From a virus, in the IMG/VR virus record IMGVR_UViG_3300028840_003906: a DNA stretch of 64,000 nt. One strand, 5' to 3'. Under the pieces are notes generated by a model. It did not search any database. It was not told the origin of the DNA and worked only from the letters and a program-made list of their open reading frames with translations. The position numbers and the translations under genes were made by a program. This document shows, piece by piece, positions 11,247 to 23,390 of the stretch; the stretch's first letter is position 1, and each line of letters begins with the position of its first letter.

Positions 11247-11768
11247 ATGAACAAGGATCGAAAGGCTTACTTCGAGAACTACTACCAGGAGAAGAAGGGG
11301 GAGTTGCTCCAGCGGAGGAATGAGCGGTACAAGAGCGATCCTGAGTATCGCGAGAAGGCCAAGGAGCGCGCGCGTGCATGGAGGGCCAAGAAGAAGCAGC
11401 AGCGGGATGAGGAGCGCGAGAAGCTCAGGGCCGAGGGGAAGCTTGAGAATGAGGGAAAGCGGCCCAGGAAGCCCGTTCTCGTGATTGTGGGGGGGCGTAC
11501 GTTGACGGCGTACCCCATGAAGATTGTGGCAGAGAAGCTGGATCGATCCGTGGGGGCGATCAACTACTGGTCGAAGATTGGGTTGTTGCCGCATACGCCG
11601 ATTCGAACGAAGGGCGGCAACCGGCTGTATACCGAGGGGATGATTCTTGTCATGCAGATGGCGATCTCTCGGCGCGGGAGGATTTCGAAGACCGATACCA
11701 CGTTCCGTGATGAGATAATTGCGGGGTGGGAGGAGTTGGGTATTCCAGTTGACAAAACCGATGAATGA
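11247..11768 (+). CDS. MerR-like helix-turn-helix DNA-binding protein
   Basis: YPMKIVAEKLDRSVGAINYWSKIGLLP..IRTKGGNRLYT. Confidence 0.65.
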   Translation: MNKDRKAYFENYYQEKKGELLQRRNERYKSDPEYREKAKERARAWRAKKKQQRDEEREKLRAEGKLENEGKRPRKPVLVIVGGRTLTAYPMKIVAEKLDRSVGAINYWSKIGLLPHTPIRTKGGNRLYTEGMILVMQMAISRRGRISKTDTTFRDEIIAGWEELGIPVDKTDE

Positions 11769-11821
11769 TGCAAAAGTGCATCACGTTGAACCGTGGCAAG
11801 ATGCCATGCGGAGGTTGAAAG

Positions 11822-12385
11822 ATGGGAAGTGAGATAGGGGAAGGGAAAAATGTTCTGCGATACTCGGTTGGCAAGAACCCGGAGCGTGTCGTCAAGGCGG
11901 AGCACAAGGACGACGGGAATCCGGTCGAGCACACCGATGAGGATCTGAGCAATTTCACGGTCAGTTTTTCGCGCACGATCGCGCTCAAGAACTACGAGTT
12001 CGCGCGTGTCGGAATGGGGATCAAGGTTGGCATCCCGTTCGACGCGGACAAGAGCCACCGTAATCAGACGTACAATCGGATGCGGGATGCCATCACCGAG
12101 ATGTTGGACCGCGAGGAGTCCGTTATTCGGGCGCAGGATCGGGATGTCCAGCCGATCGATTTGAGTGATGTCGGGGAGAACGTGGTCGTCTGGATTGATT
12201 ACGGTATGACGTTCAAGACCGGAAAGTCGATGGATTCGCAGAAGATCGACATCACGCAGTCGCGTCGCCTGGAGAACGGGTCCGATTTCGAGGCAGCGGT
12301 CGAGGCACTGGGGGAAGAGGTCGGTCGTCGCATTGGTGAGCAGCGAGATGCTGTCACAAGCGGCGAGGGGAAGGTCGGTTTTTAG
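11822..12385 (+). CDS. hypothetical protein
   Basis: RBS GGAGG; ORF fills gap before RNA gene. Confidence 0.6.
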   Translation: MGSEIGEGKNVLRYSVGKNPERVVKAEHKDDGNPVEHTDEDLSNFTVSFSRTIALKNYEFARVGMGIKVGIPFDADKSHRNQTYNRMRDAITEMLDREESVIRAQDRDVQPIDLSDVGENVVVWIDYGMTFKTGKSMDSQKIDITQSRRLENGSDFEAAVEALGEEVGRRIGEQRDAVTSGEGKVGF

Positions 12386-12401
12386 GGGCGAGTCCGAAGA
12401 A

Positions 12402-12417
12402 GCGAACTTGAGTTCGC
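12402..12417. promoter_or_regulatory. palindrome copy 2
   Basis: GCGAACTTGAGTTCGC, 2 nt before a tRNA-like gene. Confidence 0.85.
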
Positions 12418-12419
12418 AT

Positions 12420-12492
12420 GGGTTGGTAGCTCAATTGGTAGAGCATCGCGTTACCTATAGGGCGTATGCTGGTTCGAATCCGGCCCTGTCCA
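12420..12492 (+). tRNA. degenerate tRNA (unpaired anticodon arm)
   Basis: D arm GCTC-AATTGGTA-GAGC and T arm GCTGG-TTCGAAT-CCGGC intact; acceptor weak; anticodon stem TCGCG/TAGGG does not pair. Confidence 0.55.
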
Positions 12493-12502
12493 TTGGAGGT
12501 AG

Positions 12503-12769
12503 ATGATGATATTGACGCATGGCGAGAAGATGGTGTGGGCCGCTGCATTCGTTGACGAGTTCATGCCTGGGTTCAAGGAGCCAGGAGAAAACTGCATTGA
12601 CACTGAGAAGTGGGAGCAGTACGAGATCGATCTTGCGGCCATGGCAGCGGAGTCGGCGTGTGGAGCCGTGTGCCGGATGCGGGACGCGAAAGAAAGGGTG
12701 GAGCATGGGTTCGGAGAGGACAGCGACGTGACACAGATGATTCGAGCTATGCTAGGAGACGACGGATGA
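12503..12769 (+). CDS. hypothetical protein (paralog of next gene)
   Basis: THGEKMVWAAAF start shared with next ORF. Confidence 0.65.
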   Translation: MMILTHGEKMVWAAAFVDEFMPGFKEPGENCIDTEKWEQYEIDLAAMAAESACGAVCRMRDAKERVEHGFGEDSDVTQMIRAMLGDDG

Positions 12770-13035
12770 AGATGACTCATGGGGAAAAGGTCCTTTGGGC
12801 GGTCGTCTTTGATCGTCGAAGAAGGGAAGTTGTGAAAGAGATGGCCCGTGATGGAAAGGGGATGCTTGATTCCAGATCCATGGATGCGCAGATCGAGAAG
12901 TCTTTCACAGAGGGAGTGGAGGTTGCACATCTTGTTGTTTCTGAATTGAGGGTGGCAAGAGGGAAGATGGTGGCATTTCGTGGGGAGGACGACGACGCTG
13001 TCCAGATGCTATCTGATGTGTTGGGGGTGGATTGA
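12766..13035 (+). CDS. hypothetical protein (paralog of previous gene)
   Basis: THGEKVLWAVVF; ATGA overlap. Confidence 0.65.
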   Translation: MKMTHGEKVLWAVVFDRRRREVVKEMARDGKGMLDSRSMDAQIEKSFTEGVEVAHLVVSELRVARGKMVAFRGEDDDAVQMLSDVLGVD

Positions 13036-13119
13036 TCTGAGGTTCGTTTTCGCCGTGTTTTGAACTTGATATCGTCAGCGGATTGGCGATGTTCATAGAA
13101 GAAAAAAAGGAGAAAAAAG

Positions 13120-14250
13120 ATGATACTTCTCGGCCTTTTGGCCATCCCGATTCTGATCGGGTTGGGGGCAATGATTCTCGGAAAAGGAAAGTTCACGTGG
13201 AAGGAGTTCCTGGTTCAGGAGGTGGTCCTTCTCGTGGTCATTGGGGGTGGTTACGGAGCTTCGGTCCTGGCCGCGAGATGGGGCGCCGCGTCCGATGTTG
13301 AGATCTGGAATGGGAAGGTTGCCCGGAAGGACAAGGGCACGCATGGGTGCTGTCACGACTACCCCTGCAATCCACACCCATGCAACTGCGACACGAATGG
13401 GGACTGCGATACTTGCTGGGATACCTGTTACGAGCACAGCCATGACGTGTACTGGGATGCGAAGTCGACCAACGGGGAGACCGTGTACAGCAATCGATGC
13501 AACGCGCCAGGTACGAGTACTCCGAGACGGTGGGCTCAGATTCAGATCGGCGAGCCGACAGCCGTCGAGCACAGCTACCAGAACTACATCAAGGCGAACC
13601 CGGACACCGTGCTGAGGCGTCAGGGTGCTGCCGAGAAGTTCAGAGGGCTCCTGCCCGCGTACCCGCGCGTGTACGACCACTACCGCATTCGGCAGTTCTT
13701 GTTCGTGAAGATCAAAGTGGACCCATCGGCGTTGAAGTTCATGAACGAGGTCCTCATGGAGATGAACGGGGATTTGGGGGCCAGGAAGCAGCTCAACATC
13801 ATCTTTGTGGTGGCGCGTACGGACGATCCATCCTATGCGGAGGCGCTGAGGGAGCACTGGATTGGCGGAAAGAAGAACGACTTGGTGGTGGTGATGGGTG
13901 CGAAGGAGTATCCGAAGTTGGATTTCGTGGAGGTAGTGACCTGGTCTAGGAGCGAGGAGATGAAGCTTGCGATCCGAGATCGGATCATGGAGACGGAGGA
14001 GTTCGGCCACGAGAAAGTCTTCAGTATCGTCCGGGAGGAGGCTGGGAAGAAGTTCGTCCGGCAGGAGATGGCGGAGTACGAGTACCTGATGTCCTCGGTC
14101 GAGCCGCCGACATGGGCGATCGTTTTGAATTTTGTGGTTGGCCTGATCGCATCGGTCGGCCTGGCTATCTATTTTTGGCTGAAAGACCCGTTCGGCGATA
14201 GGCGTCGGTACGGATATGGGTTCCATCGATCAAGGGACTGGAACTACTAG
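13120..14250 (+). CDS. membrane protein with extracytoplasmic TPM-like domain
   Basis: Two N-terminal and one C-terminal hydrophobic helices; Cys-rich CCHDYPCNPHPCNC loop; HWIGGKKNDLVVVMG; next to LemA-like gene. Confidence 0.6.
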   Translation: MILLGLLAIPILIGLGAMILGKGKFTWKEFLVQEVVLLVVIGGGYGASVLAARWGAASDVEIWNGKVARKDKGTHGCCHDYPCNPHPCNCDTNGDCDTCWDTCYEHSHDVYWDAKSTNGETVYSNRCNAPGTSTPRRWAQIQIGEPTAVEHSYQNYIKANPDTVLRRQGAAEKFRGLLPAYPRVYDHYRIRQFLFVKIKVDPSALKFMNEVLMEMNGDLGARKQLNIIFVVARTDDPSYAEALREHWIGGKKNDLVVVMGAKEYPKLDFVEVVTWSRSEEMKLAIRDRIMETEEFGHEKVFSIVREEAGKKFVRQEMAEYEYLMSSVEPPTWAIVLNFVVGLIASVGLAIYFWLKDPFGDRRRYGYGFHRSRDWNY

Positions 14251-14259
14251 GAGGAGAAG

Positions 14260-14847
14260 ATGAGTAGAGGAATCATTGTTTTGTTGTGCGTGATCGGAGT
14301 GGTCGTTTTGTTCGGAGGGGGGTATGGGTGTAGCGCGCTCGGGTACCGACAGGACTGCGTGAAAGCAGAGGCCGGGATCCAGGCGCAGTACAAGCAGAAC
14401 CAGAACAACTACGACAACATGTGGAAGCGCTTCAAGGAGGTCGCTGCGGTCCCGAAGATGTACGCCAAGGACCTGAAGGATCTGTGGGACGGCGCCATGA
14501 AGCAGCGGTACCAGGGCGAGGGGAACGGACAGCAGCCGATCTTCAAGTGGATCCAGGAGCACAACCCGCAGCTCGATGCGTCGGTTTACAAGCAGCTGCA
14601 GCGAACCCTGGAGGCTGGGAGGAAGTCCTTCGAGGCCGACCAGAAACAGCTCATCGCGAAGAAGCAGCAGTACGAAGTGGTCCTGAAAGGCAACCGATCT
14701 CTGTTTTTCAACATGTGGTTCGGGTTTCCGAGGATCGATCTCGACGAGTTCGACATCGTGACATCGGACAAGACGGAGGAGGTTTTCAAATCGAAGAAGG
14801 ACAATGGCGTCCTGTTCGGTGACGACGTGAAGCCTGCGGAGAAATGA
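14260..14847 (+). CDS. LemA-like membrane-anchored protein
   Basis: N-terminal TM helix then [20 protein letters not shown]...[21 protein letters not shown] helical bundle. Confidence 0.65.
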
Positions 14848-15323
14848 AGAACCTGACCAACCGACAGGAGGAGGTCCTGAGAGTCATCGTCGAATTCATC
14901 CGCGAGCATATGGCCCCTCCGACGATCCGGGAGATCGGGGACATGGTTGGGATTTCCTCGACGAATGGAGTGATGGACCATCTCAAGGCGCTCCAGAGAA
15001 AGGGTTGGCTCAAAGAGGGGATAGAGGGGCACGCGAAGAGCCGCAAGGTTGCCCTCACGGGGAGGGCGCGGCTCTACCATGGGCTGTTCTTCTCTCGGGA
15101 GGATGTCGGCCTGTACAAGGCAGCTGTGGCCGACTTGTCGGCTCTTTTCGATGCCGGGGCGGATGGTCTCGATTTGTCCGTGTGTACGACGGCAGAGCAC
15201 GGGGCGGATGTTGCCTTGCGGACAGTGAAGAAGATGCTGGAGGCTCACGTAAAAATCGATCCTTTGGAGAAAAAAGAGGTTGACAAACCCATCGAACAGC
15301 AGCATGATACACGGGCGAGTTGA
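14844..15323 (+). CDS. lexA: LexA-type DNA-binding domain protein lacking the S24 peptidase domain
   Basis: [12 protein letters not shown]...[32 protein letters not shown] is a LexA winged HTH; no Ala-Gly cleavage site or Ser/Lys dyad domain visible. Confidence 0.85.
15280..15308 (+). promoter_or_regulatory. promoter for the RNA cluster
   Basis: TTGACA 15280-85, 17 nt, CATGAT 15303-08. Confidence 0.65.
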
Positions 15324-15456
15324 GAGGGATAAACTTCTCGGAAAGAGAAGCCTGGCTCAACAAAAACAGGACCTGGGGAGGTCGCCGAGAGGTAAAGATC
15401 CAAGGCGTAAACACGCACGAGCTGGTGGAAGGCCAGCGTTTTGATCTTTGAAAATT

Positions 15457-15616
15457 CGCCGAGAACTGATGAGATACTTCAGCAAAGCCATACGAGGCCG
15501 AAGTTCCAGGTTCGATTCCTGGGTTCCCCACTCCTCGATATTCGAGGGTTCATTTGGGGAACTAGCCCAATGGTAGGGCGCGGAATGCAAAGCGTATCTA
15601 ATGAATTCTCTCGGCG
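15457..15616 (+). ncRNA. Y-RNA-like RNA with circularly permuted tRNA domain
   Basis: Outer stem CGCCGAGA/TCTCGGCG and AGATAC/GTATCT enclose T arm plus 3' acceptor GTTCCCCA (15506-30), placed before 5' acceptor plus D arm GGGGAAC-TA-GCCC-AATGGTA-GGGC (15556-79). Confidence 0.7.
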
Positions 15617-15643
15617 TTTTTCTTCTTTTTGCTCATTGAAAAT

Positions 15644-16006
15644 GGGTCCGACACGGTTTCGACTTGCATGAACGAAGTGTGTAGTGCAGGCTCCGGATGG
15701 TCTATCCGGATCAAAAATTGACCGAACAAGTAATTGTCGAAAATTACGAACCAATGCAGGCGGCTGCTTAAACCACCCCTGCCGTCAGACTGGCCGAGCT
15801 TCTCATAGGCCCGATCCTGGCGTCATCAATGAGGATCGCCCTGCGCGGGCAACCCTAAGCGCACGGGTTAAAAAAATGGGTTGCGAAACCTCCGCTGCTC
15901 AGTCTGGTTGCAAACGGGTGGCGGTTGAAATTATGACCGGGCTAAGCCTGTGAATGATCTGCTCATGGAGCATGTGAGGACCCGAGTTCGACTCTCGGCG
16001 GATCCA
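15644..16006 (+). ncRNA. ssrA: tmRNA
   Basis: GGGTCCG/CGGATCC acceptor with G3-U70, 5' ACGGTTTCGAC, T arm CCGAG-TTCGACT-CTCGG, tag frame 15736-15771 = VENYEPMQAAA-stop after GTAATT. Confidence 0.93.
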
Positions 16007-16129
16007 CTTTCGGCTTCGGAACAGTGCCGTAAACTGTTGCCCTGGTGGAGGTGCCGGGAGGCGCCCCGGGCCAAGTAAACTTGCTACAGTTGATCCATGC
16101 GGACGCTGGCAGATTGAAAGGCCCATTTT

Positions 16130-16163
16130 AGCGGGATAGAGAAATGGTAACTCACGGGTCTCA
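16130..16163 (+). pseudogene. orphan 5' half of a tRNA-Met
   Basis: AGCGGGA-TA-GAG-AAATGGTAA-CTC-A-CGGGT-CTCA, stops inside the anticodon; AGCGGGA is complementary to TCCCGCT at 16867-73. Confidence 0.7.
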
Positions 16164-16815
16164 GCCTGGGAGCGTTATGGATGGAAGATCAAAGGGTGGA
16201 GTTGAGAATGGAAAAAGGCTGAGGTCCCGTGCGGTTGCCAGGTATTACGAGGATCCCAATGTTTGTGAGAATTGTGGTTCTGTCATCAGGGTTGGAGATG
16301 GTGACAGGGTTTACGATGTGAGGAAGAAGCGTTTTTGCAACAGAAGTTGTGCCGCCTCGTTCAATAACCGGAAGCATCCAAAGAGATTAGCTCGGGAGAC
16401 TTGTGTGTGCGAGGATTGCGGTGATGTTGTTGTCCTGAAGCCGCAGCGTGGTGGAGGATACGTCCAGAGGCGGTTTTGTGACACGTGTGCGAAGGCTAGG
16501 AGGATAGGAGGGAAGCCTATTGGTCTACGCACAAAGGGGGAGGTTTTCTCTGGGTCAAAGAACTGGATATCGGCACGTTCCAGCATAAGGAAGGATGCTT
16601 GGCGAGTGTTTGAGGGTTCAGGGGCCGAGAGGGTGTGTGAGGTGTGCGGGTATAGTTTGCATGTGGATGTGTGTCACATCAAACCGGTTTCGGATTTTGG
16701 GGATTCGGCTCTCGTGAGCGAAGTCAATGATATCTTAAATCTCATTGCTTTGTGTCCCAACCATCACTGGGAATACGACAATGGGCATCTTGATTTGATG
16801 CGGGACAGACAGTAA
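16144..16815 (+). CDS. HNH homing endonuclease inserted in a tRNA-Met locus
   Basis: CENCG...FCNRSC Zn motifs; CEVCGY..HVDVCHIKPV...NLIALCPNHHWEYD HNH core; start may be ATG 16177. Confidence 0.88.
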   Translation: MVTHGSQPGSVMDGRSKGGVENGKRLRSRAVARYYEDPNVCENCGSVIRVGDGDRVYDVRKKRFCNRSCAASFNNRKHPKRLARETCVCEDCGDVVVLKPQRGGGYVQRRFCDTCAKARRIGGKPIGLRTKGEVFSGSKNWISARSSIRKDAWRVFEGSGAERVCEVCGYSLHVDVCHIKPVSDFGDSALVSEVNDILNLIALCPNHHWEYDNGHLDLMRDRQ

Positions 16816-16874
16816 TGGTGCTGTGACGGTCTCATAAGCCGTAATCAGTGTCGGTTCGAATCCGGCTCCCGCTA
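16799..16874 (+). tRNA. tRNA-Met (CAT)
   Basis: GCGGGA/TCCCGC acceptor (1:72 T-T), D stem ACAG/CTGT, ACGGT-CTCATAA-GCCGT, GTCGG-TTCGAAT-CCGGC; 5' end overlaps last HNH codons. Confidence 0.8.
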
Positions 16875-16902
16875 CTAAAGTGATAGACAGAGTGGTCCTG
16901 TT

Positions 16903-17118
16903 TTGATGGAAAGGATGGTGGGGACGATGCCAAATGGGGATTTCTTGAATCCGCGTTACCGCGATGGGAATGAGTACCTGACGAACAGGCAGCTCAAGAA
17001 GAAGTACGGATATGTCCCTCGCATCAACTCTGACGACTATGATTGCGAGAAGGACTATCTTGGTGAGCTTGAGGATGCGCGGGAGCATGGTTACGAGGAT
17101 GATGAGCGTTATCCGTAA
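16903..17118 (+). CDS. small acidic hypothetical protein
   Basis: 71-aa ORF between RNA genes. Confidence 0.5.
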   Translation: MMERMVGTMPNGDFLNPRYRDGNEYLTNRQLKKKYGYVPRINSDDYDCEKDYLGELEDAREHGYEDDERYP

Positions 17119-17119
17119 G

Positions 17120-17135
17120 GCGAACTTAAGTTCGT
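17120..17135. promoter_or_regulatory. palindrome copy 3
   Basis: GCGAACTTAAGTTCGT, 3 nt before a tRNA-shell RNA. Confidence 0.85.
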
Positions 17136-17138
17136 TTT

Positions 17139-17284
17139 GAGCGAGTGGCGGAATGGATACGCCGGGATCGCAGACCAAGAGTGATGGGTCAACGGCTGTT
17201 GGAAGACTCTGACTCGTTATGGTAGGACCTGGTGACCAGGTTCGGATTCTCAGCAGCGTGCATGTTCGAGTCATGTCTCGCTCA
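17139..17284 (+). ncRNA. tRNA-shell RNA with ~75-nt structured insert at the anticodon
   Basis: GAGCGAG/CTCGCTC-A acceptor, GCG-GAATGGATA-CGC D arm, GCATG-TTCGAGT-CATGT T arm; 146 nt. Confidence 0.7.
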
Positions 17285-17321
17285 TTTTTGGATCTTTGAA
17301 AATCGAAGTTTTGTTGATCGT

Positions 17322-17437
17322 GTCCCAGTAGTGCCAATTGGTAGAACGCTGTACGTAAGAATCGGCCGCGCCGTGGGAAACCTAGTGGTCGTAAGCTGCA
17401 TACGCAGAGGTTGCAGGTTCGAGTCCTGCCTGGGGTA
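17322..17437 (+). ncRNA. tRNA-shell RNA with anticodon-loop insert
   Basis: CCCAG/CTGGG acceptor core, AATTGGTA D loop, GCAGG-TTCGAGT-CCTGC T arm; insert helix CGGCCGC/GTGGTCG; 116 nt. Confidence 0.7.
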
Positions 17438-17656
17438 CAAGGTGCGGAATGGTCTTTGTGGCGACGAAGTGCACCTTTATAAAAAGTCATGAGGAACACA
17501 AGGACATCCCGGAAAGACGGGGCGAAGCCTGATTAGCGTGACCATGCCGCGCCAGGCGGGGAAAGGTATGGGGGCCTTTACTGACTTCACCCAAAATGGA
17601 AACTGACCACCGGACGAGAGATCGTGCTTGGGTGGATCCAGGAGAGAGACCTGGGG

Positions 17657-17781
17657 ACCATAGAGGCGGAAATGGTATACGCTATCCGTCTTCCGGTTGG
17701 GCGGAGAGGGTGAGTGCTAGATGGAGCAACTTTAAATGGAAGTACCGACAGCCCGTGCAGGTTCGAGTCCTGCCTGTGGTT
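17657..17781 (+). ncRNA. tRNA-shell RNA with enlarged variable region
   Basis: ACCATAG/CTGTGGT acceptor, GCG..CGC D arm, TCCGTC/GGCGGA stem with non-canonical loop, ~50-nt variable region, GCAGG-TTCGAGT-CCTGC. Confidence 0.65.
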
Positions 17782-17790
17782 CTGATTTTT

Positions 17791-18022
17791 ACGCGGGTAG
17801 CCAAATGGTAAAGGCGGCCGTGCAGGAAAACCCCGACGGGGGGATACGAAAACCTCGGACCAGTGGTCAGTTGAATTCGGCATGGTGTCACGAGCGCTTG
17901 CGAATGGGGGAGCAGGAAAAGCCGACGGGCGTAATACGAGGAGTCAGTGGGGCGCGCGTAGCTGATAACTCTGAGGCTCTCTTGATCGAATGTCGTTGGG
18001 GGTTCGAATCCCTCCCTGCGTG
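17791..18022 (+). ncRNA. tRNA-shell RNA with ~160-nt insert containing a duplicated motif
   Basis: ACGCGGG/CCTGCGT-G acceptor, GCC-AAATGGTAAA-GGC D arm, GGGGG-TTCGAAT-CCCTC T arm; 232 nt. Confidence 0.7.
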
Positions 18023-18042
18023 CTATTTGAAGGAGGATGTTG

Positions 18043-18702
18043 ATGAAGGTGAAGTGCAAGAGCTGCGGAGCGTTTGTTGATGTGAAGGGTGACGAGCTGA
18101 CTGACGGCGATCAGGTCAGTGCGGTTCTGGTAACTCTCGTTTTATTGGCTACGTTGGCGAATGGCTTCTGGGCTTTTGATACCTGGAGGGATAAAAAAGG
18201 ATATCGGTCTGAGATCGAGGCCGAGTACAAGGATGAGTGTTGGGTTGCCGAGATCCAGAAGGAAATCAAGGTTCCGAAGCCGACAAGCGAAGAGCGATGG
18301 TGCGAGGCCCATGGTCACTGTGGGCCTGCAAGAGAGACCCTGGCTTCCGAGTTGGGGGATTGCCGGGAAGAGATGAGGATCACTGTTCGTGACCACAATA
18401 GGGCTCTGACTGAGATTGAGCAATGCCGGTATTGGCGCAAGGAGAACGAAGAGCACTTCAAGTATCTCGAAAAAGAGATCGGGTTCTACAACGATCGGTG
18501 CATGGAGTTGTACTGCGCGGAGCAGATGCACGAATGTGAGTATCATCTTGACGGGCTTCATCAGTCTTGGATCGAGTGCGAGGATGGCAGGTACGATCGG
18601 GAGGTCTATCTTGGCTACCTGGCCGAAGAGTACCGACGTTCTCATGGGGAAGGGTGGTCGAAAGAGAAGGCCATGGAGTGGTATCGAGAGGAGGAATACT
18701 GA
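18043..18702 (+). CDS. membrane-anchored Cys-rich hypothetical protein
   Basis: RBS AGGAGG; CKSCG zinc-ribbon start, one TM helix. Confidence 0.6.
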   Translation: MKVKCKSCGAFVDVKGDELTDGDQVSAVLVTLVLLATLANGFWAFDTWRDKKGYRSEIEAEYKDECWVAEIQKEIKVPKPTSEERWCEAHGHCGPARETLASELGDCREEMRITVRDHNRALTEIEQCRYWRKENEEHFKYLEKEIGFYNDRCMELYCAEQMHECEYHLDGLHQSWIECEDGRYDREVYLGYLAEEYRRSHGEGWSKEKAMEWYREEEY

Positions 18703-19004
18703 TGCTATGGTTCAAGAACAGGTTGGAGCCAGATCCTTCTGAAACCAGGGTGGTTCCGAGGCCGGAGGTGGGCACGGTCTATGTGAATAGGGACAATGAG
18801 GACCTTTTCGCGCGTGTTGTTGAGATTTTCGGTGATCTGGTTATGTACAACGTCTTCTCGTCGGATCGGAGGTGGAAGTGTGGAAGACGCAAGGTGCGGG
18901 CTGTGTTCCATTTTGCCGAGAGGTATGATACGGAGCGACCATTGTACAATGGTGATGAAATTGTACTTTTCATCAGGAAAAAGGATCAGGAGTTTGTAGA
19001 TTAA
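18702..19004 (+). CDS. hypothetical protein
   Basis: TGATG coupling to upstream gene. Confidence 0.55.
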   Translation: MLWFKNRLEPDPSETRVVPRPEVGTVYVNRDNEDLFARVVEIFGDLVMYNVFSSDRRWKCGRRKVRAVFHFAERYDTERPLYNGDEIVLFIRKKDQEFVD

Positions 19005-19101
19005 AGCGTCACCGTGGAGGGGCGCACCGAAACATGAACTCAAGGCCGTGTGAAGGTGTGTCGGCAGGATATCCTGCTGGGTTCGATTCCCAGACGCTTT
19101 T
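19003..19101 (+). ncRNA. tRNA-shell RNA lacking a D arm, with one extended central arm
   Basis: AAAGCGT/ACGCTTT acceptor, CTGGG-TTCGATT-CCCAG T arm, CAGG-ATAT-CCTG variable arm, central GCGCACC-GAA-ACATG/CGTGT-GAA-GGTGTGT. Confidence 0.6.
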
Positions 19102-19103
19102 CA

Positions 19104-19222
19104 GGGCGAGTAGCTCAGAGGGAGAGCAGGGTGCGTAGGGCAGTGTTGGGTTCGACTCCCATTCAGGAAGGTCCCCGTAAGTCCGCAACGCCCGGTCCCA
19201 GGTTCGAGTCCTGGTTCGCTCA
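19104..19222 (+). ncRNA. tRNA-shell RNA with a second T-loop hairpin nested in the anticodon loop
   Basis: GGGCGAG/TTCGCTC-A, GCTC-AGAGGGA-GAGC, GGGTG/CGCCC, CCAGG-TTCGAGT-CCTGG; nested TGGG-TTCGACT-CCCA 19147-61. Confidence 0.7.
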
Positions 19223-19286
19223 CAGAGAGAGATGCACAGCGGACGTGATCCGCTGGGGGTTTTGGTGAACACGGCATCTCTCCTTT

Positions 19287-19358
19287 GCGCTTCTAGCTCA
19301 ATGGTAGAGCCCTCGATCGATAATCGAGAGGTTCCCGGTTCAACCCCGGGGGAGCGCA
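19287..19358 (+). tRNA. tRNA-Ile (GAT)
   Basis: Complete cloverleaf GCGCTTC/GGAGCGC-A, CTCGA-TCGATAA-TCGAG; C at position 33 is atypical. Confidence 0.85.
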
Positions 19359-19367
19359 CAAAGTAGG

Positions 19368-19395
19368 TTGACAAAACTTCGAAAAGAAGCATAAT
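19368..19395 (+). promoter_or_regulatory. sigma70-type promoter
   Basis: TTGACA 19368-73, 16 nt, CATAAT 19390-95. Confidence 0.65.
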
Positions 19396-19466
19396 GACCG
19401 GGCATGGATCGCAGCAAGGGTGCTGCGCATGTCAGAGAAAATGGCAACGAAAAAGAGGTGAGAAAA

Positions 19467-19802
19467 ATGGTTGTTTCAGACAAGAATCCGAACACGCTGG
19501 TGAACAAGAGTCAGGAGAAGATGGAGGTGGCGATCATGGCCCCGGGGGCCAACCGAGACAACACCGATGTCGTGGTCGAAAACAGGGGTGAAGACGATCG
19601 GTTCCTTAGTGTCCGGGTCACCGAGGCCGATCTCCCGGAGGTGTTCCAGGACAAGATCGACGTGAGCATCGACCACGGGTTCCAGATTGATCCCAAGTTC
19701 GACGCGACGAAGGTCAAGGTTGGAATCAAGGATGGCATCATCTTCGTGAAGATTCCGGTGCGCGATGAGGTGTTCACGAAGGTCGAGATCGACGAGGAGT
19801 AG
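19467..19802 (+). CDS. small heat-shock (Hsp20/alpha-crystallin)-like protein
   Basis: MEVAIMAPGANRDNTDVVVE...FQIDPKFDATKVKVGIKDGIIFVKIP. Confidence 0.65.
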   Translation: MVVSDKNPNTLVNKSQEKMEVAIMAPGANRDNTDVVVENRGEDDRFLSVRVTEADLPEVFQDKIDVSIDHGFQIDPKFDATKVKVGIKDGIIFVKIPVRDEVFTKVEIDEE

Positions 19803-19806
19803 GCCG

Positions 19807-20880
19807 ATGCCCGATCTGATCAGATACGGTATTGGTAGGGACTACCTGCCGGACTGGGGGATCCAAGAGGCTCTTCGTGAGGTTTACCAGAACTTCATGG
19901 ACTGGGGCGAGTACATCGAGGAGGCCCGTGTCATCACGGAGGATCATAAGATTTGTGGTATGGAGAGGGAGGCTGTCGAGAACTTCGGTGGGTCGGCCCA
20001 AGAAGTCAGGATGACGAACGACTTCAATCCGTCTGATCTCGGGTTTCTGAAGATAGGGTGCTCTGGGAAGCGTGATGACAGCCGGGCCGTCGGGAAGCAC
20101 GGTGAGGGGCTCAAGATGTCGGCGATGGTCATCGTCCGAGCTGGTGGCCACTTCCGTTTTGCGTTCGACAACAAGATGTTCATGGGTGTGTTCTACCAGG
20201 ATGACCTGATGGGAGAGTGCTTTGGGTTTGAGGTCACAGGGAATAGCCCTGTGGACGGCTTCACGCTTGAGTTCACGGTGCCGGTTGAGGAGTTTGAGAA
20301 GTACCGGGTCAAGAAGATCGATCCAGATGACGTGATCTTTGAGAACGCATTCGGCCAGATGATCAAGAGGGATCCCGGGACGGTGTACGTTGGCGGCCAC
20401 TTTGTGTGCGTGGAGGATGGGTTGAACCATGCGTACAATTTCAGTCCGGAGTTCGTGCAGCTGGATCGGGACCGGAGCGTTCCAAGGGCGTTCGATGTCG
20501 ACTATGCGGCTTCGAGGATCGTGGAGCGTTCGAACGAGATGTCCATCGAGGATCTGGTTGGTCGTGAGGGGACGTATGTGGAGCGTGTCCCAGAGAAGGT
20601 TGCCAAGGCGTTTGAACCGGAGCTTTCGGGTGGCGGGAAGGTGATCTTTCGGACGAAAGACGGTGGCATTCAGGCTCCGTTCAAGGTCGGCGAGAGCCTC
20701 ATGAAGAGGCCGGAGAACAAGAAGAAGGTCAAGAAGCTGCGGTACTCCATGAGCAAGAAGAGGACTCCCCATACGATGCTGAAGGAGTTCTTTGACCGAT
20801 ACCATGTTCATCTCCCTGAGATGGCGAAGATCGACGCTGACAACCTCGTCGCGAAGTCGAAGGGATGGAAGAAGAAATGA
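19807..20880 (+). CDS. GHKL-type ATPase domain protein
   Basis: WGIQEALREVYQNFMD (N-box), LKIGCSGK, AVGKHGEGLK (G-boxes). Confidence 0.75.
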   Translation: MPDLIRYGIGRDYLPDWGIQEALREVYQNFMDWGEYIEEARVITEDHKICGMEREAVENFGGSAQEVRMTNDFNPSDLGFLKIGCSGKRDDSRAVGKHGEGLKMSAMVIVRAGGHFRFAFDNKMFMGVFYQDDLMGECFGFEVTGNSPVDGFTLEFTVPVEEFEKYRVKKIDPDDVIFENAFGQMIKRDPGTVYVGGHFVCVEDGLNHAYNFSPEFVQLDRDRSVPRAFDVDYAASRIVERSNEMSIEDLVGREGTYVERVPEKVAKAFEPELSGGGKVIFRTKDGGIQAPFKVGESLMKRPENKKKVKKLRYSMSKKRTPHTMLKEFFDRYHVHLPEMAKIDADNLVAKSKGWKKK

Positions 20881-21476
20881 TCACCATAGAGATTGACAGG
20901 TCGACGATTCGCCCTAATCCGAACGCTGGGAGGACGTTGCACAAGGTGCCAGGTCAGTCTTCGGGTGTTTTGTCCTTTCGTGGATCGTGTCCGGTTGCAA
21001 ATGGTCTTTCCATCCTGAACGACGTTATGAAAATATTGTCGGAGGCTGGCATTGAGATATTCAGGTTTAGCCGGTGCAGGGGAGATCTTTTCATTGATGG
21101 GGGGTTCTCACCGTATGATAAGGAATTGGATCGGATTAGGTCGGCCCACCATGATGTGAAGAAGATTGCTGGACTCATGGTGGAGGAGTTTGTTTGTGGG
21201 GTTCATACGGAGGTTCAGAGTTTTCGGAGCCTGACTCCGTCTCCGGCCTATCTTTATGAGTACCATGATCGCAACGTTGTGTGCAGAGAGTGCGGCTGCA
21301 GTTTTCCGCATGGCGATCTGGAGGCGGACTACGATGGGTACGGAGAAGATGATGAGGTTTGGTCAAATTCCATTTGCCCGGTGTGCGGAGAGTGGGACTG
21401 TTGCGATTTCGTGTTTGAGGAGCTGTCTTCTGAGATGATCGATGAGTTGGGCGTCGGTGCGGAAGAAAGTTGTTGA
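20877..21476 (+). CDS. hypothetical protein with C-terminal Cys pairs
   Basis: CRECG...CPVCG; ATGA overlap. Confidence 0.55.
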   Translation: MITIEIDRSTIRPNPNAGRTLHKVPGQSSGVLSFRGSCPVANGLSILNDVMKILSEAGIEIFRFSRCRGDLFIDGGFSPYDKELDRIRSAHHDVKKIAGLMVEEFVCGVHTEVQSFRSLTPSPAYLYEYHDRNVVCRECGCSFPHGDLEADYDGYGEDDEVWSNSICPVCGEWDCCDFVFEELSSEMIDELGVGAEESC

Positions 21477-21500
21477 CAAATTTCGAGGAGTGAGTAGTAT
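21473..21500 (+). promoter_or_regulatory. promoter for the Y RNA / Ro60-like unit
   Basis: TTGACA 21473-78 (uses upstream stop codon), 16 nt, TAGTAT 21495-500, about 9 nt before the RNA. Confidence 0.65.
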
Positions 21501-21509
21501 ACAGGACGT

Positions 21510-21636
21510 GGCTGAGAACTGGGGAGACATTCCAGGAAACTAGCTCATTTGGCAGAGCAAAAGGCACATAACCTTTGGGTAGATGGTTCGATTCCATCGT
21601 TTTCAACGAAAAAATGTCTTTGAAACTCTCTCGGCC
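21510..21636 (+). ncRNA. YrlA-type Y RNA (tRNA mimic fused to a long outer stem)
   Basis: GGCTGAGA/TCTCGGCC and AGACATT/AATGTCT stems enclose GGAAAC-TA-GCTC..GAGC-A-AAAGG-CACATAA-CCTTT..GATGG-TTCGATT-CCATC-GTTTTC; directly upstream of TROVE-like gene. Confidence 0.8.
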
Positions 21637-21773
21637 CTCTTTTCTGATTCACTTCTCTAAGAACTGAAAAAGTCGATACAGGTTTTGGATATAAACTAGC
21701 TCGACTTTCGGGTTTTCTTGGGGATTTTTTCCCTCACAGCTGATCACATCTGAGAGAGATGGGAGGTTGAACG

Positions 21774-23390
21774 ATGAAGGACATCATGCAAGCTGGAGGA
21801 CTGTGGAAGGCACCGAGCGCAATCGAGGCGCAGGAGGCGGCTTCCGTTGTGCGATCTTTCCTGGACGTGGCAACCACGTCGTACGGAAGGGCGACCCACT
21901 ACAACACCCGTGAGGAGCAGGTTGCGGCCGAGCGTCGTGTCCACGACACGCTCTTCGGGCAGGGGCGAGATCTGTACGAGGCGCTCCTTCTGATGCCGGG
22001 GGTGACGGATCGGGCTCGCCAGATCGGAATCGGAAAGCTGCTCTCGAACCCGAGGAGTCCGGGGTCGGACATGTTCTTGAACCCATCCCTGGAGCGGGAG
22101 ATTCTCGTGCATCTGATCGGCCAGTTGCCGGTTCCGAGGATGTTCAAGCTCTTTGATGCCTTCCGGGGCAAGGGGGATGCTCTTGGTGTGAAGCGTTCGA
22201 ACAACGCGCGGACCAGGAAGTTGGTCCTGTCGACGATCTTGGGATCGCGGAGGCTTGATCTCTGGGCAGTGAAGTACCGCTCGAAGATGAAGCGCGTCCT
22301 CGGGCATGTCTGGGGGGTTCGGCGTGCGAGCATCATTGCGTCGATCTTGAAGAAGGATGGTCGGACGTGGACCAAGAAGGAGAAGGATATCCTCCGGGAC
22401 AACGTCCTCAAGTTCGTCGGCAACAACAAGAGGGAGTACGTCTTCGAGTGTATCGCGTTCGTCTTCGGTCGGCGTGACCGGCTGAAGGTCCGGCTCCTGA
22501 AGGCGTTCGTGGACGCGCGCGTGGACATTCTGGCTGGTGAGAAGCTCCCGATGGAGGTCCTGGAAGGGATCCGGGGGACGTATCACCCGACGATCGGGGC
22601 CGGGGAGTTGCTGAAGATCAAGGCCAGATCCGGAACGATGACGGACCATAACAAGCGGGTGGTTCAGAAGCGTGCGAACAAGGCGGGGGTCAAGGTTGAT
22701 ATGGATCCGCTGCGGTACGATCCGGTCGATTTGTACATCCACGCATTCGAGAATGGTGTGGACGCGGATATCGTCGCGGCGCTCAAGAAGAAGGCGCAGT
22801 CGGCGGCGGCGGCCCTCCCGGTTCGGTACGAGAACGTGGCGATCCTGGTGGATGCTTCGCGCTCGATGAAGGGGAGCAAGGAGCAGCCGATGAGGCCGCT
22901 GGCCACGGCGCTCTCTCTTCGGGATATGCTGCAGGAGACTTCGGACGACTCGATGATCCTGTATTGCGGTGGCGTCCTGGGGGACGACCAGAAGGTTGTC
23001 AAGCCGCAGGGTGACACGTCGCTCGCAGAGGGCCTCCTTGGCGCTTTGGGGCGCAACCCGGACGCCGTGTACGTTCTGTCGGACGGGTACGAGAACGCGC
23101 CAGCAGGGCGCTTCCAGGACGTCCTCGTGGCGGCTAGGGGGATTGGCATCAAGACGCCGGTTTTCCATATGAACCCGGTGTTCGCTGCAGAGGGTGGCTC
23201 TGTTAGGCAGCTCTGCGACAATATCGAGGGGGCGACGACCATGCCGGTCAAGTCGCCGTCGGCTCTGGCGACCACGATGCTTCGGGGTCTCCTGGAGTCG
23301 GATCCGCAGCGCGGAATCAATGCGTTGGTTCAGAGTGCGCTGAGGGGGTCCACAATCGAGAGCTTGGCTCTCATTGGAGGTGAGTCATGA
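21774..23390 (+). CDS. Ro60/TROVE-like protein: helical N-terminal region plus vWA domain
   Basis: vWA MIDAS LVDASRSM...GDTSL...VLSDGYEN; ~370-aa basic helical N-terminus; adjacent Y RNA supports the Ro60 call. Confidence 0.65.
   Translation: MKDIMQAGGLWKAPSAIEAQEAASVVRSFLDVATTSYGRATHYNTREEQVAAERRVHDTLFGQGRDLYEALLLMPGVTDRARQIGIGKLLSNPRSPGSDMFLNPSLEREILVHLIGQLPVPRMFKLFDAFRGKGDALGVKRSNNARTRKLVLSTILGSRRLDLWAVKYRSKMKRVLGHVWGVRRASIIASILKKDGRTWTKKEKDILRDNVLKFVGNNKREYVFECIAFVFGRRDRLKVRLLKAFVDARVDILAGEKLPMEVLEGIRGTYHPTIGAGELLKIKARSGTMTDHNKRVVQKRANKAGVKVDMDPLRYDPVDLYIHAFENGVDADIVAALKKKAQSAAAALPVRYENVAILVDASRSMKGSKEQPMRPLATALSLRDMLQETSDDSMILYCGGVLGDDQKVVKPQGDTSLAEGLLGALGRNPDAVYVLSDGYENAPAGRFQDVLVAARGIGIKTPVFHMNPVFAAEGGSVRQLCDNIEGATTMPVKSPSALATTMLRGLLESDPQRGINALVQSALRGSTIESLALIGGES

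What the first reader, a model, noticed from the sequence alone, without database searches (positions are those of the whole stretch)
17139..19222. Array of tRNA shells: intact acceptor and T arms with rebuilt anticodon domains
Seen in sequence: six elements (17139-284, 17322-437, 17657-781, 17791-18022, 19003-101, 19104-222) keep a paired acceptor stem, a canonical TTCGA T loop and (five of six) a GG-containing D loop. They are 99-232 nt long, and their anticodon or variable region is replaced by well-paired extra helices with no readable 7-nt anticodon loop. Only two near-canonical tRNAs are in the window. Random decay would not spare the elbow and acceptor while adding paired helices. Inference: these could be tRNA scaffolds that stabilise or excise cargo RNAs through RNase P/3' processing, decoys for anticodon nucleases or T-box/ribosome sensors, or unusual intron-containing tRNAs. 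With Ro60-like, Y RNA, KhpA and tmRNA genes nearby, this may be an undescribed phage tRNA-mimic system.
Basis: partly seen in the sequence, partly recalled or inferred. Interest (0 to 1): 0.87.

Follow-up and report, generated by a model that had tools for sequence, protein, structure and literature searches.

The report
Six anticodon-less tRNA-shaped phage genes
A large phage carries six tRNA-shaped genes in which 50-180 unrelated bases sit where the anticodon loop should be, so they almost certainly cannot read codons; whether they are working tRNA mimics or wrecked tRNA genes is still open.

Summary
All six elements have a 7/7-paired acceptor stem, a 5-bp T stem and a canonical TTCRANY loop. 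Five also have a D arm with GG. My scan gave about 0.05 such hits per shuffled genome.

None has a usable anticodon loop. E2 and E6 keep a stem at the exact anticodon-stem position, but no deletion gives a 7-nt loop with both U33 and a purine at 37 (E6 lacks U33; E2 gives U37). ARAGORN calls five of them intron-bearing tRNAs, but those calls survive shuffling of the interior 51-82% of the time for E1, E4 and E6. Rfam finds no group I intron or other family.

Only E5 folds better than shuffled sequence (z = -4.5), so "well-paired extra helices" is only partly true.

The two nearest complete relatives lack these six. Each has one analogous shell elsewhere. The neighbouring 538-aa protein has a Ro60 fold, and a YrlA-like RNA and a tmRNA lie upstream. 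Both relatives also encode RtcB.

- **Best reading (0.45):** processed, non-decoding tRNA mimics that act through the intact upper half.
- **Main rival (0.3):** tRNA genes broken by mobile DNA. An HNH cassette splits tRNA-Met next door.
- **Spliced introns:** unlikely.

Earlier notes of this scan describe similar shells in other phages.

The parts
17139..17284 (+). E1, 146 nt. Acceptor GAGCGAG/CTCGCTC, U8, a 3-bp D stem with a tRNA-Leu-like D loop (GGCGGAATGGATACGCC), T arm GCATG-TTCGAGT-CATGT, discriminator A. The interior (17164-17261) is a 6-bp stem that opens into a three-way junction.
17322..17437 (+). E2, 116 nt. Acceptor GTCCCAG/CTGGGGT (two G-U pairs), imperfect D stem, T arm GCAGG-TTCGAGT-CCTGC. 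A 4-of-5 stem sits at the canonical anticodon-stem position. The interior starts with CGTAAG and ends with CGTAAG plus 7 nt.
17657..17781 (+). E3, 125 nt. Acceptor ACCATAG/CTGTGGT, A8, class II-like D arm, T arm GCAGG-TTCGAGT-CCTGC, 74-nt interior.
17791..18022 (+). E4, 232 nt. Acceptor ACGCGGG/CCTGCGT, D arm GCC/GGC, T arm GGGGG-TTCGAAT-CCCTC. The 181-nt interior forms two domains. Each carries the module GCAGGAAAA, a hairpin with a GACG loop, then ATACGA (17822-49 and 17912-39).
19003..19101 (+). E5, 99 nt. 7-8 bp acceptor, no D stem, and a 13-bp rod: 8 bp, a GAA/GAA internal loop, 5 bp and a 10-nt loop. A variable-arm-like hairpin follows, then T arm CTGGG-TTCGATT-CCCAG. It starts at the stop codon of the upstream ORF and ends 2 nt before E6.
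   Evidence: z -4.5; tRNA-Sec model 22.7 bits, below cut-off
19104..19222 (+). E6, 119 nt. Fully canonical acceptor, D arm and T arm, with a 5/5 anticodon stem (GGGTG/CGCCC) at the exact canonical position and a 4-nt variable loop. The loop is 55 nt and contains a second T-arm-like hairpin (TGGG-TTCGACT-CCCA).
16799..16875 (+). tRNA-Met(CAT). This is the conserved left border of the island and is present in relatives G1 and G2.
19287..19359 (+). tRNA-Ile(GAT). This is the conserved right border of the island. A strong sigma-70-like promoter follows at 19368-19395.
17440..17655 (+). Conserved unnamed RNA 'X' between E2 and E3. Its core is CGTGACCATGCCGCG...GGTATGG. It is the only part of the Met-to-Ile interval shared with G1 and G2.
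18037..19004 (+). Two ORFs (221 aa and 97 aa) of no known family, lying between E4 and E5. They belong to the same stretch that is specific to this genome.

Best explanation
The six elements are tRNA-derived genes that no longer decode. They keep the parts of a tRNA that processing and charging enzymes read: the 12-bp acceptor/T minihelix, the T loop and, in five of six, the D arm that forms the elbow. The anticodon loop is replaced by 50-180 nt of sequence specific to this lineage.

I infer that they are transcribed with the flanking tmRNA and tRNA genes. Host RNase P would cut the 5' end, and 3' trimming plus CCA addition would finish the 3' end, since no CCA is encoded here or in the neighbouring true tRNAs. 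The products would be stable 100-230-nt tRNA-shaped RNAs that act through their tRNA-like upper half. They could work as competitors or decoys for tRNA-binding factors, or as carriers of the inserted domain.

E1 has A73, U8, A14, G18G19 and a Leu-type D arm, so LeuRS might charge it without an anticodon.

Shown: the anatomy, the absence of a usable anticodon loop, the clustering, and the Ro60/YrlA-like/tmRNA neighbourhood. Inferred: transcription, processing, stability and any activity.
For: - All six have a 7/7 acceptor, a 5-bp T stem and a canonical T loop, against about 0.05 expected per shuffled genome.
- None resembles any of 282 canonical tRNAs of this phage clade by more than 31 of 38 compared positions. 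They are therefore not fresh copies, yet their stems are intact.
- Every element in the Met-to-Ile interval is a shell and none is a normal tRNA.
- G1 and G2, which share about 50-70% protein identity with this phage, each keep one shell at the same syntenic spot. The acceptor stems differ but still pair.
- E5 is far more stable than shuffled sequence (z -4.5).
- The two modules of E4 keep a hairpin through different stem sequences.
- E2 and E6 share boundary motifs. CGTAAG occurs 3 times in 134 nt of interior against 9 times in 128 kb.
- The clade is rich in tRNA-derived non-coding RNAs and RNA-repair genes: tmRNA, YrlA-like RNAs, a Ro60-fold protein, and RtcB in G1 and G2.
- For LeuRS, A73 and the U8-A14, G18-U55 and G19-C56 core are critical, while the anticodon arm is dispensable (PMC2377443).
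Against: - No orthologues of E1-E6 exist in any collection searched, so there is no covariation test.
- Other samples hold a 100% identical copy, so there is no population variation to use.
- G1 and G2 lack shells between tRNA-Met and tRNA-Ile.
- E2, E4 and E6 fold no better than shuffled sequence.
- The inserts have no copies or complements in this or related genomes.
- The E4 module is absent from IMG/VR.
- The core is slightly eroded in E2, E3 and E5.
Confidence: 0.45

Rival explanations
1. Relics. These were ordinary phage tRNA genes whose anticodon loops were hit by mobile DNA (homing-endonuclease cassettes) or by recombination between tRNA genes. What remains is non-functional debris in a fast-changing island.
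For: - A live example lies next door. An orphan tRNA-Met 5' half (16131-16164) is followed by an HNH gene (16144-16815, Pfam HNH_2) and then a complete tRNA-Met.
- The whole 2.4-kb interval is absent from G1 and G2, where the Met-to-Ile spacing is 330-510 nt.
- The E6 insert holds a fragment that looks like another tRNA's T arm.
- In E2 and E6 the inserts are flanked by direct repeats (CGTAAG and CGTA), as a target-site duplication would be.
- Three of six interiors fold no better than chance.
- E2, E3 and E5 show small defects in the core.
Against: - Six out of six keep perfect acceptor and T stems while having no close parent tRNA.
- Removing the repeat-flanked inserts of E2 and E6 leaves 13-nt loops, not tRNA loops.
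- No endonuclease remnant or repeated cassette is detectable in the inserts.
- Phage genomes rarely keep 800 nt of dead sequence.
- Shells persist at a conserved site in G1 and G2.
Confidence: 0.3
2. Punctuation only. The shells are kept solely as RNase P and 3'-processing signals. They would release the neighbouring RNAs (RNA X, the ORF221-ORF97 message, the true tRNAs) from one long transcript, and the inserts would be neutral filler.
For: - The shells directly flank RNA X, and E4 and E5 flank the two-ORF message. E4 ends 15 nt before the ORF221 start, and E5 starts at the stop codon of ORF97.
- No promoter-like site lies inside 15300-19360, and a strong one lies just after tRNA-Ile.
- The inserts are idiosyncratic, also between the G1 and G2 shells.
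Against: - Two shells in a row (E1-E2, E3-E4, E5-E6) are more than punctuation needs.
- G1 and G2 manage RNA X with ordinary tRNAs or the tmRNA as neighbours.
- The E5 rod and the duplicated E4 hairpin look selected.
Confidence: 0.12
3. True intron-bearing pre-tRNAs. The inserts would be removed at the RNA level to give Arg, Thr, Lys, Ile and Val tRNAs, as ARAGORN proposes.
For: - ARAGORN in intron mode calls five of six and makes no other such call in the 124.7-kb genome.
- E3 can give a perfect CUUUUAA loop on a 5-bp stem.
- Lak megaphages carry 'enigmatic' tRNA introns (PMC6784885).
- A relative has a tRNA with a group I intron (L030).
- RtcB ligase is encoded by G1 and G2.
Against: - With shuffled interiors ARAGORN still makes the call in 51% (E1), 73% (E4) and 82% (E6) of trials, and in 9% and 7% for E2 and E3.
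- E6 cannot give a loop with U33 by any single deletion. E2 gives only CUGCAUA, with U at position 37 (read).
- The proposed solutions need 8- to 24-nt unpaired variable regions and weak stems.
- There is no group I match.
- Inserts of 25-71 nt are too short to self-splice.
- This contig has no splicing endonuclease and no RtcB.
- Going by its relatives, the phage should carry ordinary tRNAs for these amino acids in the array that lies off this contig.
Confidence: 0.08

Closest known systems
'Enigmatic introns' in tRNA genes of Lak megaphages (Devoto et al. 2019, PMC6784885)
   Same: Both are phage tRNA genes with non-self-splicing inserts in the anticodon region. One Lak insert itself looks tRNA-like, as the second T-arm hairpin of E6 does.
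   Different: In Lak phages, removing the insert gives a standard tRNA, and alleles with and without the insert exist. Here no clean excision exists for E2 and E6, none is convincing for the others, and six such genes sit together.
YrlA-type bacterial Y RNAs (Rfam RF02553; Chen et al. 2014, PMC4201824)
   Same: Both have a tRNA-like upper half (acceptor, T arm, D arm) joined to a long non-tRNA stem at the anticodon-stem position. Both lie next to a Ro60-type gene. A YrlA-like RNA sits 1.6 kb upstream at 15498-15587.
   Different: YrlA is circularly permuted. Its acceptor is closed by a loop, and the ends of the RNA lie in the long stem. The shells have an open acceptor and a closed distal domain, and they give no YrlA match.
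tmRNA tRNA-like domain (RF00023)
   Same: Both have an acceptor and T arm with a large insert in place of the anticodon arm. E5 also lacks a D stem and has a long rod, like tmRNA helix 2.
   Different: The shells have no tag reading frame and no G3-U70 pair. They are 99-232 nt long, and neither ARAGORN nor Rfam calls them tmRNA.
Engineered tRNA scaffolds for RNA expression (Ponchon and Dardel; from my own knowledge, not read here)
   Same: The architecture is the same: cargo RNA replaces the anticodon stem-loop of a tRNA, so that cellular tRNA enzymes process and protect the chimera.
   Different: Those are artificial constructs. Nothing here shows that the natural inserts are cargo with a function.
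RNA C and RNA D of the phage T4 tRNA region (PMC3014915)
   Same: Both are small RNAs of unknown role encoded within a phage tRNA gene cluster.
   Different: No sequence or structure comparison was made here. The T4 RNAs are known to be expressed; these are not.
Group I intron in tRNA-Leu (cyanobacterial type), seen here in relative L030:2993-3292
   Same: Both are inserts in the anticodon loop of a class II-like tRNA gene in the same phage clade.
   Different: The L030 insert matches the group I model over its full length (37 bits, E 5.5e-8). The six shells give no such match.

Membership tests
Canonical tRNA (RF00005) | 7-bp acceptor stem, 5-bp T stem and a T loop with T54, T55, C56 and A58 | tested here: met
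   All six meet this.
Canonical tRNA (RF00005) | D arm with G18 and G19, and U8 | tested here: inconclusive
   E1, E4 and E6 are canonical. E2 has a mismatch and an extra base. E3 has A8. E5 has no D stem.
Canonical tRNA (RF00005) | 5-bp anticodon stem closed by a 7-nt loop with U33 and a purine at 37 | tested here: not met
   No such loop is present. The interiors are 58-181 nt.
Canonical tRNA (RF00005) | Score at or above the Rfam gathering score (29 bits) | tested here: not met
   The best score is E2 at 20.8 bits. E5 scores 22.7 bits on the tRNA-Sec model, whose cut-off is 47.
tRNA with group I intron | Match to the group I catalytic core (RF00028) | tested here: not met
   No match up to E 5 in 11500-22500. 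The positive case L030 scores 37 bits.
tRNA with protein-spliced (bulge-helix-bulge) intron | Two 3-nt bulges on opposite strands around a 4-bp helix, plus a splicing endonuclease gene | tested here: not met
   E6 forms a symmetric 4x4 internal loop, not staggered bulges (and reading). PF01974 is absent from the contig. The contig is only 68% complete.
Lak-type phage tRNA intron | Deleting the insert restores a standard tRNA | tested here: not met
   E6 never gets U33, and E2 gives only CUGCAUA with U37. The E1, E3 and E4 solutions are non-canonical and are at or near chance in the shuffle control.
YrlA / Y RNA (RF02553) | Permuted order: T arm, closed acceptor hairpin, D arm, with a terminal stem formed by the two RNA ends | tested here: not met
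   The acceptor strand of each shell does not pair with that of its neighbour, and no YrlA match falls on the shells.
tmRNA (RF00023) | Tag reading frame, G3-U70 pair, pseudoknots | tested here: not met
   ARAGORN and Rfam call only the tmRNA at 15644-16009. No shell has G3-U70.
Leucine-accepting tRNA-like RNA (E1 only) | A73, U8-A14, G18G19 facing T55 and C56, class II D arm (PMC2377443) | tested here: met
   The sequence features are present in E1. Charging itself cannot be tested with these tools.

The most novel reading that the evidence does not exclude
Large phages that carry a Ro60/Y-RNA/RtcB RNA-repair module may also encode a class of non-decoding tRNA mimics. These would be natural 'tRNA scaffolds' that are processed and CCA-tailed, and in some cases aminoacylated. 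They would either soak up tRNA-targeting host defence factors or display swappable RNA domains. This phage would carry an expanded set of six.
Probability: 0.3. Interest if true: 0.8.

Novelty: new variant of a known kind. Interest (0 to 1): 0.55.

Why it matters
If these RNAs are made and stable, tRNA genes in large phages would be raw material for a family of non-decoding RNAs, alongside tmRNA and Y RNAs. Annotation now files such genes as pseudo-tRNAs or as 'introns'.

They would also give a natural counterpart to engineered tRNA scaffolds. They would be candidates in the contest between phages and tRNA-cleaving or tRNA-modifying host defences.

If they are relics, they document how often mobile DNA wrecks phage tRNA genes at the anticodon loop.

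Tried and rejected
- **Search for orthologues.** I anchored on ORF221, the 371-aa ORF and the helicase in IMG/VR. I also searched the 5.8-billion-protein set. Only identical copies or relatives at 50% identity or less turned up.
- **Population variation.** Contigs from two other samples are 100% identical across the compared stretches (8.4 kb and 2.0 kb), so there is none to use.
- **Ro60-anchored loci.** I fetched 33 loci from IMG/VR and JGI metagenomes and scanned them. Most apparent shells dissolved:
  - L043 and L047 are neighbouring tRNAs with similar acceptors.
  - L026, L028 and L029 are tandem YrlA-like units read out of register.
  - L034 8728-8873 overlaps YrlA-like matches.
  - L030 is a group I intron.
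- **Inserts against G0, G1 and G2.** There are no copies and no antisense targets.
- **E4 module pattern in IMG/VR.** No match.
- **Parent tRNA search.** No close parent among 282 tRNAs.
- **Overlapping ORFs.** The ORFs on both strands that overlap the shells match no Pfam family.
- **ORF221.** No PHROG match and no usable Atlas neighbour.
- **ATACGAGG.** This 8-mer is shared by E4 and the YrlA-like RNA, but it occurs 4 times in the window against 1.2 expected, so I did not use it.
- **Splicing genes.** RtcB, splicing endonuclease and class II CCA enzyme are absent from this contig.
Full report
**What the DNA is.** The window is part of a 124,752-nt virus contig that CheckV rates 68% complete. 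It has 55% G+C. Phage genes surround the finding: a DnaB-like helicase, a ResIII helicase, a LexA-type repressor, an HNH endonuclease and RecA.

ARAGORN finds 12 ordinary tRNAs at the start of the contig. Inside the window it finds a tmRNA (15644-16007) and four tRNAs.

Two complete relatives were found through the 538-aa gene downstream. G1 is 194.9 kb and G2 is 176.3 kb, with 70% and 67% identity in that protein. Each has about 30 tRNAs in two arrays plus the same tmRNA, tRNA-Met and tRNA-Ile neighbourhood. The first array lies beyond the start of our contig. By analogy, this phage probably has ordinary Arg, Thr, Lys and Val tRNAs elsewhere.

**Checking the observation.** I scanned for a 5-bp T stem with G53/C61, a TTCRANY loop, and a 7/7 acceptor stem placed 60-340 nt apart. 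Their lengths are 145, 115, 124, 231, 98 and 118 nt. Twenty shuffles of the genome gave one hit in total. The elements are real and clustered.

MFE folds show the acceptor stem in all six, the T arm in five, and the D arm in E2, E4 and E6.

The claim of 'well-paired' replacement helices is only partly true. Against shuffled sequence, E5 is clearly more stable (z -4.5). E1 and E3 are marginal (-1.6 and -1.1). E2, E4 and E6 are indistinguishable from chance.

The cores are not all perfect. E2 has a mismatch and an extra base in the D stem, E3 has A8, and E5 has no D stem.

It makes no other such call in the genome. A control shows that the shell, not the anticodon solution, drives these calls. 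With the interior shuffled, the same full-length call still appears in 51/100 trials (E1), 73/100 (E4) and 82/100 (E6). For E2 and E3 it appears in 9/100 and 7/100.

The proposed solutions need weak stems and 8- to 24-nt unpaired variable regions.

E6 and E2 give the cleanest test, because each has a stem at exactly the canonical anticodon-stem position. In E6 the stem is 5/5 and lies 4 nt before the T stem. No combination of a prefix and a suffix of the E6 interior gives a 7-nt loop with U33. E2 gives only CUGCAUA, with U at position 37.

Rfam finds no group I intron or any other family in the inserts. It does detect a full-length group I intron in a tRNA-Leu-like gene of a more distant relative (L030:3018-3205, 37 bits).

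The contig has no splicing endonuclease, RtcB or class II CCA enzyme. G1 and G2 do encode RtcB, about 4 kb beyond the Ro60-type gene. I therefore put the intron reading at about 0.08.

**Comparative evidence.**
- The interval between tRNA-Met and tRNA-Ile is 2.4 kb here, but only about 510 nt in G1 and 330 nt in G2.
- The relatives share with the window only a conserved unnamed RNA ('X', window about 17520-17600). G1 and G2 also carry a small basic ORF that I did not look for here.
- E1-E6 and the two ORFs between E4 and E5 are specific to this genome.
- No closer relative exists in IMG/VR, JGI metagenomes or the large protein collection.
- Contigs from other samples are 100% identical. Covariation and population tests are therefore impossible for the six themselves.
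- G1 and G2 each carry one shell of the same kind (142 and 207 nt). Both sit at one syntenic site next to the homologue of window 11822-12385. They share a Leu-like D arm (GTGGCG...), have different but fully paired acceptor stems, and have unrelated interiors.
- That pattern, a conserved tRNA top with a free interior, is what one expects if the tRNA-like half is the selected part.

**Features that look selected or shared.**
- E4 contains two copies of GCAGGAAAA, a hairpin with a GACG loop, then ATACGA. The stems differ but both pair. The pattern is absent from IMG/VR.
- The interiors of E2 and E6 both begin with CGTA directly after the stem and end with CGTAAG plus 7 nt.
- CGTAAG occurs 9 times in 128 kb. 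Three of these fall in the 134 nt of those two interiors, and one lies 20 nt upstream of E1.
- This could be a target-site duplication or an RNA motif. Removing the repeat-flanked part leaves 13-nt loops in both.

**Context.**
- The 538-aa protein has no Pfam, PHROG or PDB sequence match.
- Its AlphaFold model (pLDDT 83) matches Ro60 structures as the top 11 hits. These include the Ro60 of Thermus phage phiLo (E 2e-6 to 2e-4, TM about 0.5).
- A YrlA-like RNA lies at 15498-15587 (33 bits, below the cut-off). YrlA-like units recur in related phages.
- A shell is topologically a circular permutation of YrlA. It has the same tRNA-like top, but the acceptor is open and the long arm is closed.

**The main rival.** Directly upstream, an orphan 5' half of tRNA-Met (16131-16164) is followed by an HNH gene and then a complete tRNA-Met. 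Mobile DNA therefore does strike anticodon loops in this very cluster.

Several other points fit relics: the lineage-specific island, the T-arm fragment inside E6, the direct repeats in E2 and E6, the chance-level folding of three interiors, and the small core defects.

Other points argue against relics. All six keep intact acceptor and T stems. None has a recognisable parent among 282 tRNAs of the clade. The inserts hold no detectable endonuclease remnant.

**Verdict.**

| Reading | Confidence |
|---|---|
| Processed, non-decoding tRNA mimics acting through the intact upper half | 0.45 |
| Relics of insertion | 0.30 |
| Pure processing signals | 0.12 |
| Spliced introns | 0.08 |

E1 has the sequence determinants that LeuRS needs without an anticodon (PMC2377443). 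That gives a concrete test.

Published precedents are the 'enigmatic' tRNA introns of Lak megaphages (PMC6784885) and the unexplained RNAs C and D of the T4 tRNA region (PMC3014915).

Earlier notes of this scan describe comparable shells in other large phages. I treat them as leads only.

Noticed in passing
window 16131-16875: An orphan 5' half of tRNA-Met (acceptor, D arm, anticodon stem, ...CTCA) is followed by an HNH endonuclease gene (16144-16815). A complete tRNA-Met then begins inside the last HNH codons. In G1 and G2 the tRNA-Met follows the tmRNA region without any HNH gene. It looks like a homing cassette that brought its own replacement 5' half.
   Followed up: partly
window 17440-17655 (core about 17520-17600); L003:7126-7177; L004:6918-6975: An unnamed conserved RNA. 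Its core is CGTGACCATGCCGCG...GGTATGG, forming a 7-bp stem around a variable hairpin. It is always next to tRNA-like genes and has no Rfam family.
   Followed up: partly
window 21774-23390: A 538-aa protein with no sequence-family match. Its predicted fold matches Ro60/TROVE plus vWA, including the Ro60 of Thermus phage phiLo. It is followed by an ARPP-1 domain gene and RecA.
   Followed up: yes
window 15498-15587: A YrlA-like permuted tRNA domain just upstream of the tmRNA (Rfam 33 bits, below the 69-bit cut-off).
   Followed up: partly
L003:11435 (G1) and window 12419-12493; L003:4164-4239; L004:9769-9844: The Ro60-type gene of G1 has an in-frame TAG where this phage has Gln. The three phages carry odd tRNAs: 8-nt loops holding CCTA (this phage) or TTCA (G1), and a tRNA with anticodon TTA (G2). 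This may be stop-codon suppression or an assembly error.
   Followed up: no
G001:C1:106581-107816; G002:C1:85498-86715: Both complete relatives encode RtcB RNA ligase about 4 kb beyond the Ro60-type gene. That completes a Ro60/Y-RNA/RtcB repair set. This contig has none.
   Followed up: partly
L030:2993-3292: A tRNA-Leu-like gene with a full-length group I intron (Rfam 37 bits, E 5.5e-8) in a more distant phage of the same Ro60-bearing group.
   Followed up: partly
L034:8308-8719: A 412-nt RNA with a full tRNA D arm, an encoded CCA end and an internal YrlA-like unit. It is probably an unusual tmRNA.
   Followed up: no
window 19368-19395: A near-consensus sigma-70 promoter (TTGACA, 16 nt, CATAAT) directly after tRNA-Ile. 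No promoter-like site lies inside the shell region.
   Followed up: no
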